Below, in pieces: positions 40,243 to 43,710 of a stretch of 64,000 nucleotides of DNA. The number at the start of each line of letters is the position of its first letter. Within the stretch, counting starts at the first letter, position 1. Made by a program: the position numbers and the translations under genes. Under the pieces are notes generated by a model. It did not search any database, was not told the DNA's origin, and saw nothing but the letters and a program-made list of their open reading frames with translations. This stretch comes from a virus. Location: IMG/VR virus record IMGVR_UViG_3300036827_000193, positions 1 to 64,000 of that record. One strand, 5' to 3'.

Positions 40243-41001
40243 TTAGACCGTTTCCGGCCCGACCCACTGGACCTTGACGCGCGGGATGCCGCCGCCAGCG
40301 CCGGAGCCGGCGCCATTCGCCGCCAGCGTCACCACGACGACGAGCCACATGATGCCGCCGTTGGTGTAGGTGCCGGTGAAGGTCTTGGCGACCTCGATGT
40401 ACTGGAAGTTGGTATCGATCGCCGTGATGGCCATCAGGTTGGCGTTGGCGTTGGTGCCGCCGCCGACGATGCCCTGGGCCGAGACGAGTTGGCCCGTGAC
40501 AAGGTCCTTGAACGGCTGCTGGCCAGCCGCAAAGATGCGGCAGTGGCTGGAGTCGACACCCTGGACCACGGATGTGATCACCCAGCCGCTCGCCGGGATG
40601 CGGCCCGCCGGCACAACCGTGCCATAGGAGCCGCCGGCGATGCCCTTCGACGTCAGCGGTCCGCCGTCGAGGACGACGTGACCGGCGAAGTCGCTGAGCG
40701 CGCGCGGGGGATTACCCGTGATCGCTTCGGCGCTGGCGCGGTAGGGACCAACGCCATAGCCCGTTGCGGTCGCGGTGCCGAGCCGGTAGCGCCCGTAGGT
40801 GAAGTCACCCGACGAGATGCCAACCATGAGCTCGGGCACCGTGGTGGTGCCGACCATCGAGGTCGTGACATCGACCATCAGGTCGCGCACGAACCCGACT
40901 TTGCCGCGTGGGCCGACGATGTAGTGGACCACGCTTGCCGCAGCCCAGCCGGTCGATTCGGCCCACTGCTGCAGTTCGACGTCGGAGTTTTCGTATGCCA
41001 T
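40243..41001 (-). CDS. Putative capsid-associated (decoration) protein
   Basis: Directly after the capsid gene, GGAGG RBS, Gly/Thr-rich beta composition. Confidence 0.65.
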   Translation of the reverse strand: MAYENSDVELQQWAESTGWAAASVVHYIVGPRGKVGFVRDLMVDVTTSMVGTTTVPELMVGISSGDFTYGRYRLGTATATGYGVGPYRASAEAITGNPPRALSDFAGHVVLDGGPLTSKGIAGGSYGTVVPAGRIPASGWVITSVVQGVDSSHCRIFAAGQQPFKDLVTGQLVSAQGIVGGGTNANANLMAITAIDTNFQYIEVAKTFTGTYTNGGIMWLVVVVTLAANGAGSGAGGGIPRVKVQWVGPETV

Positions 41002-41016
41002 GTTCTGTTTCCTCCG

Positions 41017-43710
41017 TTACGCCGCGCTGTCCCACATCACGACCCGCGAGTTGAGCGAGTCGGTGTGGACCAAACCAAAACCGCCGAGGTAATTGATTGT
41101 GTTCACCCGTCGTCGCTAACGACGGGCCGAGACGACCTTTTTGTAGGTCAACTCTGCTGGCTCTTTCGAACCAGTCCAGACCATATCTTCAGTGACGCAA
41201 GTTGCTTTTTTGCGTTACTGCTGGGGGCTTCGGTGCGCTTGCACCTACGAGCTTTCGCTCTGGTCGTTGAAGCTTCCTCTGCGTGAGAGGCTCGCCTGCT
41301 GATTATCCAATCTCAGAACTTTTCAGGCCGTCACGCCTGCGGTCGCCCGCTACGTTGTGGCGTTCTGAGCTTTAGGAACTTCCAGCAATTCTCCCAGTTT
41401 TTACGCCTAGCATTATTCTCTACCAGGCGATGCCCCGGCTGCGACCGTAGTCGCCCGGGATCTTCGCGCGGACTTCCTCGGGTACGCACACGGCTTCAGT
41501 GACCGTGTCACCGCCGCAGAAGAACGCCCAGGAAGACAGGCCATTCGTCCACGGTTGCGCAACGCCGCTCCACGGATCGTACGACGTGGCATTCGCCGCG
41601 CCGCCCTTGGGAACGAACGTCTGCTCGATGAAGCGGCAGGACTCGTACCTGCCGATTTCGCCGTTGAAGATGTGCGCGAGACCGGTCTCGGTGTACTGGT
41701 GGATGGTCTCGAGCGAATTCTTGAAGTTGCGATACGTGGTCGGATGCGACACCGCCACGTAGTCATCCGCCGTGAACGGCGGAATGTTTCGCTCCTTCAT
41801 GGTGTCGACGATCGCCTTGACGTGCCCGGTACCGAGCGCGACGTTGTTCGTCACGGTTGCGGTGCCGTTGGTGTCGAGGTTGATGGCGGTCGTCGAAGTG
41901 CTGGAAGACGGCTCGGCGCGCAGCAGAGTGTTCTTGAACTGCAAGAACGACTCGATGTCGAAGTATTTGCGCGCGTCGTCCTTCAGCGTTTTGTCGATGA
42001 TCGCGGCGACCTGATGCTTCGCCAGCGCGACCAGCTTGCCGGTGTAGGGAACGCTATTCCCAGCTTCAAAGCAGAATTGTTCTTTGCCGCGGCTCTTTAT
42101 CCGCAGCCTCAACCGCTCGCGCGATTGCTCAGACTATCTCTTGCAGATTACTGTGATCTGCCCGGGCGCTCGTGGTCGGATTATTCTTTCGTCACCGACT
42201 AGTCGTTACGCCTTCCGCGCCCCTGGGGCTCTCGCCTTACATGCGCGACTTGGCTCGGGATTGTCTCTGAGAGAGGTTCCCCGAATTCACCCGGTGTTTC
42301 ACCTTACGCGGCGAGCGCGAAGGTGCGGCCTGTGTTGACCGTAAGCTGGTGTTGCAGCATGACGAACCCGGTCTCCGGGATCGGGGCGCTTTCGTCCAGC
42401 CGGCGGCCTTGCGTGCCGAGGTTGGAATAAACGTCCCAGTTGAACTTGTCGCCGCGGTTGAGGCCTTTCTTGGTGCCATCCTCGGCGTCGCAGAGCTGCC
42501 GCATCTTGGTCAGCGGCTGCACCTGCTGGCGGAGCACGTCCGACAATTCGTCGGAGTACATGAATCCGCCCTCAGTGGGGACTGCCTTTTGTTCGCACGA
42601 TCCCGTTTGTGGATCGTTCCTGCATCTTTCAATGCAGAGCAGACTATATCTTGAAATCTTCTGCCGGTATCCCACATACATCCCTAGCGGGGAAACACAT
42701 GCGCATCACCAAATCACAACTCGTCGCCCTCTACGCAAAGAGGACTGACGATCAAATCGGCAAGCTGTTCGGCGTAACCGGCCATTCAGTTGGCGATTGG
42801 CGACGGCATTATGGCATCCAGCGCAAACCAAGAGAGACTTACAACAAGTATACCCTTGATCGCGATTTTTTCGCGAAGATTGACACCGAAGAGAAGGCGT
42901 ACGCGCTCGGTCTTATAGCGTCCGATGGATGGGTGGCCCGATCTGGAAAGCAAGTGAGCCTTGCTCTTCAGGTTCGAGACCGGCACATCCTTTATGATCT
43001 TCGACGCGCCCTGAAGTCGGATGCTCGTGTCTTCGACAAGGCGAGAGGCGGCTTTGCCGGCTCTGGCCCGCGGAAACAGATTACCTTCGACAGCAAGAAG
43101 CTGGTCGCCGATCTGGCGCGCTGGGGTGTCATCCCCGGAAAATCAGTCACCCTCCGCTACCCCCGTATTCCGAAACATCTTGAGTGCCATTTTGCGCGAG
43201 GACTTTTTGACGGGGATGGGCACATTCGCGCCCACCCGAAAAAGCTCTTTTATTTTCTTGGCACTTCCGACCTGATCGACGGACTACGAAAGTCGATCAT
43301 CCGACATACGGGCGCGGCGCTCGCCAAGTACGAGGCCGTGGGCTGTTGGCGGATTTCTGGATACGGTGGCAGCGTCGCGGTGCTGCGGTGGATGTATGAA
43401 GATGCGACGATCTGCCTTCGCAGGAAGCATCGCGTCTTCTTGAGGTACTGGAAGTGATGTCCTGGGCGCTCGTGGGACCGATTATCGTCGGGGTCTCACA
43501 GTCCTAGTCGTTGAACCTTCCGAGCTACAGTTTCCCCTGCTCGGCTTGGCTGCTGATCGGCCAATCCCTGATCTTTTCGCGCATTCACGCTCGCCCTCTC
43601 GGGCCACGTTGTAGCGATCAAGGCTCTAAGGCTGTTCCAGCAATTCACCCAGTGCGCACTCTGAACTCGCATTCAGAGGGGGGCTAAGTTACCCACAATT
43701 GTCCTGCCAT
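41017..43710 (-). CDS. Major capsid protein (N4-gp56-like family), about 330 aa, four exons: complement(join(41017..41093,41422..42071,42338..42584,43692..43710))
   Basis: Joined frame reads MAGQLW/AVPTEGGFMYSDELSD...QHQLTV/FEAGNSVPYTGKL...GEIGRYE..RF...IPGDYGRSRGIAW/YYLGGFGLVH...VVMWDSAA*; AAAGGA RBS; follows the scaffold gene. Confidence 0.88.
41094..41421 (-). mobile_element. Group I intron 3 (328 nt, no ORF; two hairpins between P7 and P3, IA2-like); apparent terminal A
   Basis: P1 CGCCUGGU/GCUAGGCG with U.G; P AAUUGCUGGAA, Q AAUCAGCAG, R UUCAACGACCAG, S GAAGAUAUGGUCU (compensatory GACCA/UGGUC). Confidence 0.9.
42072..42337 (-). mobile_element. Group I intron 2 (266 nt, no ORF, canonical splice sites)
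   Basis: P1 CGGU|C/GGCCG with U.G; P AAUUCGGGGAA, Q AAUCCCGAGC, R GUAACGACUAG, S AAGAGAUAGUCU; ends ...AAUUCUG; removal restores GT|C TTT GAA. Confidence 0.92.
42585..43691 (-). mobile_element. Group I intron 1 (about 1107 nt) with an antisense LAGLIDADG ORF in the P8 loop
   Basis: P2 CUCUGAA/UUCAGAG, P3 CUGGGU/GCCCAG, P AAUUGCUGGAA, Q GAUCAGCAGC, R GUUCAACGACUAG, S AAGAUAUAGUCU, P9 UGCAU..GAAA..AUGCA; boundaries uncertain by 1 nt. Confidence 0.88.
42699..43457 (+). CDS. Double-motif LAGLIDADG homing endonuclease with N-terminal HTH
   Basis: AYALGLIASDG and HFARGLFDGDG; N-terminal DQIGKLFGVTGHSVGDWRRHYGI; GGGGA RBS before ATG 42699. Confidence 0.9.
   Translation: MRITKSQLVALYAKRTDDQIGKLFGVTGHSVGDWRRHYGIQRKPRETYNKYTLDRDFFAKIDTEEKAYALGLIASDGWVARSGKQVSLALQVRDRHILYDLRRALKSDARVFDKARGGFAGSGPRKQITFDSKKLVADLARWGVIPGKSVTLRYPRIPKHLECHFARGLFDGDGHIRAHPKKLFYFLGTSDLIDGLRKSIIRHTGAALAKYEAVGCWRISGYGGSVAVLRWMYEDATICLRRKHRVFLRYWK

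What the first reader, a model, noticed from the sequence alone, without database searches (positions are those of the whole stretch)
41086..41430. Intron 3 appears to end in A instead of the near-universal terminal G
Seen: P1 fixes the 5' site after TGG T. The frame giving W-Y-Y-L-G-G needs exon 4 to start at AUUACCUC, so the intron ends ...GAACACAAUCA. Independent support: the guide segment GAGAAUAAU forms a good P10 with AUUACCUC, and the end aligns base for base with intron 2 (...GAACAAUUCUG). The P7 G-binding pair looks normal. Known: omega-G is almost invariant in group I introns, with rare omega-A cases. Inference: a natural omega-A intron, a slow or regulated second step, or an inactivating mutation or assembly error. 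The nearest in-frame G alternative would add four residues and break a P9-region stem.
Basis: partly seen in the sequence, partly recalled or inferred. Interest (0 to 1): 0.8.

Follow-up and report, generated by a model that had tools for sequence, protein, structure and literature searches.

The report
Phage capsid intron ending in A
The third self-splicing (group I) intron in this soil phage's only capsid gene really ends in A instead of the near-universal G; a diverged relative keeps the same A, so it is most likely a working natural exception of a rare, already documented kind.

Summary
Observation confirmed. The minus strand carries a 330-aa N4/PTXU04-type major capsid gene split by three group I introns. 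About 95 intronless homologs read ...GIAW-YYLGGFG... without a gap, which fixes the exon 3/exon 4 junction at TGG T|AT TAC. Intron 3 is therefore 41421..41094, and its last base is A41094. P1 (a U.G pair at U41422) and P10 (UAAU/AUUA next to P1) place the same sites. The A is not an assembly slip: an independent Logan assembly of the probable source run agrees at depth about 25. A diverged metagenome contig (L087; exon 4 only 74% identical) ends its intron ...GAACACAAUCA|AUUAUC, also with A. A third homolog at the same site (L063) ends in G. Its P7 G-binding region is identical to the window's, so nothing compensates for the A. Exon 4 differs between the two A-bearing phages by 12 synonymous and 3 non-synonymous codons. 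This is the only capsid gene in the record, which CheckV rates complete. I conclude it is a heritable omega-A intron that most likely still splices (about 0.6). No RNA evidence was obtainable. Published precedents exist: hexacoral mitochondrial ND5-717 and Coxiella Cbu.L1917. This scan has also noted capsid introns ending in A on other DNA. It is a new member of a known rarity.

The parts
43692..43710 (-). Exon 1 of the major capsid gene (ATG 43710; MAGQLW + first base of codon 7). The border with intron 1 is uncertain by one base.
   Evidence: relatives begin MAGQLW(A/S/V)xxxEGG.
42585..43691 (-). Intron 1 (group I, 1107 nt). It holds an antisense LAGLIDADG ORF at 42699-43454 (+).
   Evidence: Rfam 50.7 bits; Pfam LAGLIDADG_3.
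42338..42584 (-). Exon 2.
42072..42337 (-). Intron 2 (group I, 266 nt). It is canonical: U42338 at -1, omega G42072, tail GAACAAUUCUG.
   Evidence: Rfam 42.4 bits, below the gathering score; junction HQLTV|FEAGNSVPYTGKL fixed by relatives.
41422..42071 (-). Exon 3. Its last 8 nt, CGCCUGGU (41429-41422), form the 5' strand of P1; the 5' splice site lies after U41422.
41094..41421 (-). Intron 3, a 328-nt group I intron with no ORF. It starts with an in-frame stop (TGG|TAG).
   Evidence: Rfam RF00028 68.1 bits; borders from homologs.
41404..41420 (-). Internal guide: GAGAAUAAU (41420-41412, the P10 strand) followed by GCUAGGCG (41411-41404, the P1 3' strand).
   Evidence: Direct reading. UAAU pairs with exon 4 bases +1..+4 (AUUA), and GAG pairs with +6..+8 (CUC).
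41260..41271 (-). J6/7 and the P7 5' strand, UUCAACGACCAG. The G of GACC belongs to the G-binding G-C pair.
   Evidence: identical in the omega-G homolog L063.
41178..41190 (-). J8/7 and the P7 3' strand, GAAGAUAUGGUCU.
   Evidence: identical in L063.
41106..41126 (-). P9.2 hairpin CCCGUCG-UUAGCGA-CGACGGG. It contains G41106, the nearest in-frame alternative G.
   Evidence: Fold. The loop UUAGCG is kept while the stems differ in L087 and L063.
41094..41105 (-). Unpaired 3' tail UGAACACAAUCA. Its last base, A41094, is omega (T on the + strand).
   Evidence: L087 has the same tail and the same A. Omega lies 11 nt after the P9.2 stem in L063 (G) and L087 (A), and 12 nt after it in the window (A).
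41017..41093 (-). Exon 4: AT TAC CTC GGC ... TAA, encoding (Y)YLGGFGLVHTDSLNSRVVMWDSAA*.

Best explanation
Intron 3 is an intact phage-type group I ribozyme with P7.1/P7.2-like hairpins, inserted between W305 and Y306 of the phage's only major capsid gene. Its terminal nucleotide is a heritable A rather than G. The first step should run as usual: free guanosine binds the unchanged G-C pocket in P7 and attacks after U41422 at the U.G pair of P1. In the second step the tail is held by P10 (UAAU/AUUA stacked on P1) and by a likely 2-bp P9.0 (GA in J7/9 with UC at omega-2 and omega-1). This presents the A41094|A41093 bond to the 3' OH of exon 3. A fits the G pocket poorly, so exon ligation is expected to be slower than with G. 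It would still be accurate and sufficient, and it would yield the normal ...GIAW-YYLGGFG... capsid protein. The shown parts are the borders, the A, its recurrence in a second lineage, the intact core and the selection on exon 4. The inferred parts are that ligation really occurs and how fast it is.
For: (1) About 95 intronless homologs fix the junction, and the spliced product aligns gap-free to a 330-aa relative. (2) The Logan contig of run X1 (probable source; different assembler; depth 24.7) is identical across 40900-41700. (3) A metagenome scan with N at omega gave one hit, L087, and it has A...GCCGCGAACACAAUCA|AUUAUCUCGG. L087 is a different phage: exon 4 is 56/76 nt identical and the next gene is about 68% identical over the parts that align, with a roughly 80-aa insertion in the window. 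Its copy of the intron still carries an ORF and has a P9.2 stem with different but pairing letters. (4) Exon 4 differs between the window and L087 by 12 synonymous and 3 non-synonymous codons (binomial P about 4e-5 against 72% non-synonymous). Exon 4 can only be translated after exact splicing. (5) Against the omega-G sibling at the same site (L063), the core is about 80% identical, with compensatory changes in P3, the P5 extension, P7.2 and P9. Both ribozymes have therefore been kept foldable. (6) The record holds a single capsid gene. It has no integrase and is rated 100% complete. The same sequence turns up in runs of three soil studies. (7) Precedent: ND5-717 introns end in A and yield ligated ND5 mRNA (PMC8146996, PMC6545197).
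Against: No RNA run holds the stretch, so splicing is unobserved. The G-binding region (J6/7, P7, J8/7) is letter for letter that of the omega-G sibling, so nothing compensates for the A. From memory (Price & Cech 1988; Michel 1989; Been & Perrotta 1991), omega G-to-A changes in model introns strongly impair exon ligation. L087 has lost the capsid stop codon (TAA to TAT), which gives a 180-aa read-through. That copy may be decaying, or the short contig may carry an error. Only two A-bearing lineages were found, and the search pattern required the tail GAACACAAUC, so sampling is biased.
Confidence: 0.6

Rival explanations
1. The A is an inactivating G-to-A mutation. Intron 3 no longer completes the second step, translation stops at the in-frame TAG that opens the intron, and the genomes carrying it are defective.
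For: The G pocket is unchanged. From memory, omega-A mutants of Tetrahymena and td-type introns block or cripple exon ligation. L087 has also lost the capsid stop codon. The homolog at the same site in L063 has G.
Against: The A occurs in two diverged phages. Exon 4 shows 12 synonymous against 3 non-synonymous codon changes between them. Exon 4 of the window is no more diverged from relatives than the rest of the protein (3/25 against 35/330). This is the only capsid gene, in a record rated complete with no integrase. The sequence sits at depth about 25 and appears in several soil runs. The ribozyme helices carry compensatory changes.
Confidence: 0.22
2. Splicing uses a G elsewhere. One option is G41106, which gives W-LNTIN-YLGG (+4 aa). 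Another is G41085, which gives W-CGFG (-3 aa). The capsid protein would then differ from all relatives.
For: Both Gs are in frame, and the -13 G is also present in L087.
Against: WYYLGGFG is invariant in length and nearly invariant in sequence in about 95 homologs. G41106 is paired in P9.2. No P10 can form at either site, whereas UAAU/AUUA places A41093 as +1. The closest G (41104), joined to the U41422 site, gives TGG TAA, an immediate stop.
Confidence: 0.05
3. Sequencing or assembly error: the real base at 41094 is G.
For: The window is a metagenome assembly. Only contigs, not raw reads, could be laid. The one run that covers the base is probably the source sample.
Against: Two assemblers agree at depth 24.7 with no difference. 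An unrelated GenBank metagenome contig with diverged exons has the same A.
Confidence: 0.03

Closest known systems
Hexacoral (sea anemone, mushroom coral) mitochondrial ND5-717 group I intron
   Same: It is a natural group I intron with an otherwise conventional compact core that ends in A instead of G, sits in an essential protein-coding gene, and is inherited with the A (PMC8146996; PMC6545197).
   Different: ND5-717 is organellar, obligatory and strictly vertically inherited. It carries whole genes in P8 and may be removed by back-splicing. The intron here is a 328-nt ORF-less phage intron from a mobile lineage: its siblings carry HNH genes, and most relatives lack it at this site. An omega-G sibling exists at the same site.
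Coxiella burnetii 23S rRNA intron Cbu.L1917 (Raghavan et al. 2007, J Bacteriol 189:6572)
   Same: It is a bacterial-world self-splicing group I intron that 'lacks the canonical omega G' (title seen in the reference lists of PMC3428280 and PMC11270868). That the replacement is A is from my memory.
   Different: It sits in rRNA rather than an mRNA, and in a cellular rather than a phage genome. The paper is not held here, so details were not checked.
Phage group I introns in structural and other genes (T4 td/nrdB/sunY; Twort orf142 with three introns; mycobacteriophage LittleE and lactococcal Tuc2009 capsid genes)
   Same: These are group I introns in phage genes, including capsid genes and one gene with three introns. 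Some have HNH or other homing endonucleases and efficient splicing late in infection (PMC3706429; Twort and T4 from memory).
   Different: The described ones end in G. LittleE is explicitly stated to have U at -1 and G at the 3' end (PMC3706429).
Engineered adenosine-specific Tetrahymena ribozyme (Michel 1989; Been & Perrotta 1991; from memory)
   Same: A terminal A is used at the 3' splice site.
   Different: There the G-binding pair was changed from G-C to A-U to accept the new base. Here the pair is still G-C, so the specificity was not switched.

Membership tests
Group I intron (Rfam RF00028) | Conserved catalytic core (P3-P9) scoring above the curated threshold | tested here: met
   68.1 bits against a gathering score of 50, full model 1-253.
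Group I intron (Rfam RF00028) | P1 helix between the 5' exon and the internal guide, with a U.G pair at the 5' splice site | tested here: met
   CGCCUGGU/GCUAGGCG, with U41422 paired to G41411. The helix is kept with a one-sided change in L063 (GCCAGGCG).
Group I intron (Rfam RF00028) | G-binding G-C pair in P7 | tested here: met
   CGACCA/UGGUCU by sequence, identical to the omega-G sibling. Binding itself was not tested.
Group I intron (Rfam RF00028) | Terminal guanosine (omega G). This is near-universal rather than strictly defining, because published exceptions exist. | tested here: not met
   The last base is A41094.
Group I intron (Rfam RF00028) | P10 between the guide and the 3' exon | tested here: met
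   UAAU (41415-41412) pairs with AUUA (41093-41090) and GAG pairs with CUC. This is pairing by inspection only.
Group I intron (Rfam RF00028) | Self-splicing with exon ligation | not testable with these tools
   No RNA holder was listed. There is only indirect support from selection on exon 4.
Natural omega-A group I introns (ND5-717, Cbu.L1917) | Terminal A fixed by the exon junction and inherited across lineages | tested here: met
   Both the window and the diverged L087 have A. That is only two lineages, and a third (L063) has G.
Natural omega-A group I introns (ND5-717, Cbu.L1917) | Accurate removal shown at the RNA level | not testable with these tools
Subgroup IA (phage-type) group I introns | Extra helices P7.1/P7.2 between P7 and P3' | tested here: inconclusive
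   Two hairpins, GAGCGAAAGCUC and GGUGCAAGCGCACC, lie at that place; the second covaries with L063. No formal subgroup classifier was run.
N4/PTXU04-type (HK97-fold) major capsid protein | Full-length similarity to annotated major capsid proteins | tested here: met
   Exon 3 is 49% identical to the PTXU04 putative major capsid protein. The spliced product is 89% identical and gap-free against L007. The Pfam Phage_capsid_3 match is only weak.

The most novel reading that the evidence does not exclude
The terminal A is a selected feature rather than a tolerated defect. In a ribozyme whose guanosine pocket is unchanged, omega-A would be kept because it suppresses side reactions of the 3' splice site (hydrolysis, intron circularisation) or delays capsid synthesis. 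The same gene's intron 1 also cannot obey both canonical splice rules. This phage intron pool may therefore have relaxed the U(-1)/G(omega) rules in general. The window (A) and L063 (G) would then be a natural sibling pair at one insertion site for measuring what omega-G is really needed for.
Probability: 0.25. Interest if true: 0.65.

Novelty: new member of a known kind. Interest (0 to 1): 0.45.

Why it matters
Omega-G is treated as a universal rule of group I splicing and is used by annotation tools to place 3' splice sites. A small, ORF-less, 328-nt phage intron that keeps a terminal A in the one capsid gene the phage has would be a convenient natural system. It comes with an omega-G sibling at the same site and an identical G pocket. 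With it one could measure how much the second step depends on the base at omega, and whether an A lowers 3'-site hydrolysis, as proposed for ND5-717. On the practical side, capsid genes of soil phages can be mis-annotated as broken if a terminal G is demanded.

Tried and rejected
- **RNA evidence:** no RNA holder was listed.
- **Independent runs:** X3's contig covers only 41101-41460, so neither independent run informs base 41094.
- **Pattern scans:** the strict pattern and the N-at-omega pattern in viral contigs and genome contigs gave 0 hits.
- **Core pattern:** GGGAGAATTGCTGGAA gave 93 viral loci, but only the L063 contig lies in a capsid homolog.
- **HNH-based search:** it found mostly free-standing HNH genes just downstream of intronless capsid genes, plus one more intron at the YYLG|G site (L182). 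It found no new intron at W|YY.
- **Search with L087's downstream gene:** two loci, both intronless at this site.
- **Genome-contig relatives:** all are intronless here.
- **Raghavan 2007 and Hicks 2011:** these papers are not held. Only the 2007 title is verified.
- **Alternative G sites (41106, 41104, 41085):** rejected on protein conservation, pairing and frame.
- **Border shift by one base:** it gives the same mRNA and still a terminal A.
- **Split capsid (305 aa plus a 29-aa peptide from the in-frame GTG at 41105):** rejected. There is no usable ribosome-binding site, and the GTG is absent in L087.
- **Second capsid gene or prophage remnant:** rejected. There is one capsid gene and no integrase.
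- **Switched nucleoside specificity (A-U pocket):** rejected. The pair is G-C.
Full report
**What is there**

The window is part of an 81,387-base IMG/VR virus record that CheckV rates 100% complete. On the minus strand, 43710..41017, lies a major capsid gene related to that of E. coli phage PTXU04 (Xuquatrovirus) and of Vibrio podophages. Exon 3 is 47-49% identical to them. The gene is split by three group I introns. Rfam RF00028 scores them 50.7 bits (42620-43700), 42.4 bits (42110-42323, below the gathering score) and 68.1 bits (41157-41493). Joining the four exons in a script gives a 330-aa protein. It aligns without a gap to the 330-aa intronless protein of a relative, L007, with 295/330 identical. 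It is the only capsid gene in the record, and no integrase is present.

**The observation**

Exon 3 ends ...GGC ATC GCC TGG T, and the next letters, AG, make an in-frame TAG. Downstream, the letters AT TAC CTC GGC GGT TTT GGT ... TAA encode (Y)YLGGFGLVHTDSLNSRVVMWDSAA*.

- PTXU04 reads GVAWYYMGGFG and Vibrio phage 219E41.1 reads GVAWYYLGGFG.
- About 75 of 80 related IMG/VR contigs read GIAWYYLGGFG continuously. So do 15 of 16 relatives in bacterial genome bins, the closest being a Xanthobacteraceae MAG at 91%.
- The mature mRNA must therefore read TGG TAT TAC CTC. The intron is 41421..41094 (328 nt), and its last base is A41094 (T on the + strand).
- Shifting both borders by one base gives the same mRNA and again a terminal A.

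The RNA structure points to the same sites.

- P1 is CGCCUGGU/GCUAGGCG with U41422 paired to G.
- The four guide bases just 5' of it (UAAU) pair with exon 4 bases +1..+4 (AUUA). GAG pairs with CUC at +6..+8, completing P10.
- GA in J7/9 can pair with UC at omega-2 and omega-1 (P9.0). I infer this from the sequence.
- The tail UGAACACAAUCA is unpaired in the predicted fold. The nearest in-frame upstream G (41106) lies inside the P9.2 stem.
- G41104 joined to the U41422 site would give TGG TAA. G41085 would give W-CGFG.

One claim needs trimming. The match with intron 2's end concerns register only: both tails have GAACA followed by six bases up to omega, and the letters beyond GAACA differ.

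**Is the A real?**

- Only contigs, not raw reads, were available.
- The Logan assembly of run X1 is probably the source sample, so it is an independent assembler rather than an independent sample. It is identical over 40900-41700 at word depth 24.7.
- X3, from another study, carries the identical intron, but its contig stops at 41101.
- The decisive result came from a scan of metagenome contigs with the pattern GAACACAATCNATTAYCTNGGNGG, leaving omega free.
- The single hit, L087 (VFSW01418483.1), reads ...GCCGCGAACACAATCA|ATTATCTCGGTGGGTTCGG. Omega is A again.
- L087 is a clearly different phage. Exon 4 is 56/76 nt identical. The next gene is about 68% identical over the parts that align, and the window carries a roughly 80-aa insertion there. 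Its intron still carries the end of an HNH-like ORF.
- The last hairpin keeps the loop UUAGCG but has a different, still pairing stem: CUGAU/AUCAG against CCCGUCG/CGACGGG.
- An assembly error is therefore very unlikely. The A has been inherited, or moved by homing, across diverged genomes.

**Relatives with G**

nhmmer found a homolog of intron 3 at exactly the same site in L063 (IMGVR_UViG_3300002461_000087). It starts after ...GCCTGGT, carries a 159-aa HNH gene in the P9 region, and ends ...GCGAAAAUCUCCG|ACUAUCUCGGCGG, that is with omega G. Omega lies 11 nt after the P9.2 hairpin in L063 (G) and in L087 (A), and 12 nt after it in the window (A).

A related intron nine bases downstream, at the YYLG|G site in L052, ends GUGAACAUGAUUG|GGAUUC. 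That tail aligns in register with the window's GUGAACACAAUCA.

The window and L063 ribozymes are about 80% identical. J6/7-P7 (UUCAACGACCAG) and J8/7-P7' (GAAGAUAUGGUCU) are identical. P3, the P5 extension, P7.2 and P9 show compensatory changes. Both ribozymes have thus been kept foldable, and the guanosine pocket has not been altered to suit an A.

**Does it work?**

No RNA data could be had, so this part is inference.

In favour:
- Between the two A-bearing phages, exon 4 has 12 synonymous and 3 non-synonymous codon differences. The binomial P is about 4e-5 if 72% of changes were expected to be non-synonymous. These 25 codons can only be read after exact splicing.
- The window's exon 4 is no more diverged from relatives than the rest of the protein.
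- The gene is the only capsid gene of a complete-looking phage with no integrase. That phage was assembled at depth about 25 and is detectable in runs of three soil studies.
- A homing-competent form (L087, with an ORF) and an ORF-less form (the window) both carry the A.

Against:
- The pocket is unchanged.
- From memory, omega G-to-A mutants of model introns are severely impaired in exon ligation.
- L087 has TAT where all relatives have a stop codon, giving a 180-aa read-through. This is either decay or an error in a 1.2-kb contig.

I put a heritable, splicing-competent omega-A at about 0.6. A defective allele gets about 0.22, use of another G about 0.05, and error about 0.03.

**Comparison with what is known**

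Natural omega-A introns are documented. [quoted passage not shown] For Coxiella burnetii, the title of Raghavan et al. 2007 states that one 23S intron 'lacks the canonical omega G' (seen in the reference lists of PMC3428280 and PMC11270868). The paper itself is not held.

Capsid-gene group I introns in phages are also known, in LittleE and Tuc2009. LittleE ends in G (PMC3706429). I did not find a published phage intron ending in A, but my literature search was limited.

Earlier notes of this scan report capsid-gene introns ending in A on other DNA, two of them with RNA support. I could not test those, and they did not enter my score. I file this finding as a new member of a known rarity.

**Noticed besides**

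- **Intron 1 splice rules.** The homologous intron 1 of the window and of L010 cannot satisfy both canonical rules. Relatives have exactly five residues between MAGQLW and GG(F/Y). Only G(-1) with omega-G (giving W-A...) or U(-1) with omega-C (giving W-V...) keeps that frame, and this holds in both genomes.
- **Intron hotspot.** The capsid gene of this phage group holds introns at five or more sites.
- **Free-standing HNH genes.** HNH genes homologous to L063's intron-borne one sit directly downstream of intronless capsid genes in several relatives.

Noticed in passing
window 43685-43710 and 42575-42600 (minus strand); L010 675-700 and 1770-1800: Intron 1 cannot obey both splice rules. P1 (GGGU/GCCC) predicts cleavage after U43691, yet relatives have exactly five residues between MAGQLW and GGF. 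Only G(-1) with omega-G (W-AVPTE) or U(-1) with omega-C (W-VVPTE) is in frame. The homologous intron in L010 shows the same dilemma (W-AIPAE or W-VIPAE).
   Followed up: partly
window 42699-43454 (+): A 252-aa LAGLIDADG-type ORF (Pfam LAGLIDADG_3, E 3e-7) lies inside intron 1 on the strand opposite to the intron. An antisense intron endonuclease gene has a precedent in mycobacteriophage LittleE (PMC3706429).
   Followed up: partly
L010, L013, L052, L063, L182 versus the window capsid gene: The capsid gene of this phage group is an intron hotspot. Group I introns occur at five or more sites: W6|, TV|F, NSV|P, W|YY and YYLG|G. Each is present in only a few of about 100 relatives, and their 3' tails share a GAACA motif.
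   Followed up: partly
L183-L190, about 60-170 bases downstream of the capsid stop codon: Free-standing HNH genes 45-52% identical to the intron-borne HNH of L063 sit directly after intronless capsid genes. This suggests exchange between free-standing and intron-borne endonucleases at this locus.
   Followed up: no
L087 1066-1068 (minus strand): In the second omega-A contig the capsid stop codon is TAT instead of TAA, so the frame runs on for 180 aa across the next gene. Whether this is real decay or an error in a 1.2-kb contig is unknown.
   Followed up: partly
window 41106-41126; L063 4411-4437; L087 about 1160-1182: The last hairpin before the 3' tail keeps the loop UUAGCG(A) in three lineages while its stem letters differ but still pair. 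In L063 and L087 the endonuclease stop codon lies in the 5' strand of this stem.
   Followed up: no
L203 (Xanthobacteraceae MAG), L204, L206 (Bradyrhizobium sp. BRP22): The closest capsid homologs in bacterial genome bins are in Xanthobacteraceae and Bradyrhizobium (91-70% identity). This hints at a Hyphomicrobiales host for this soil phage.
   Followed up: no
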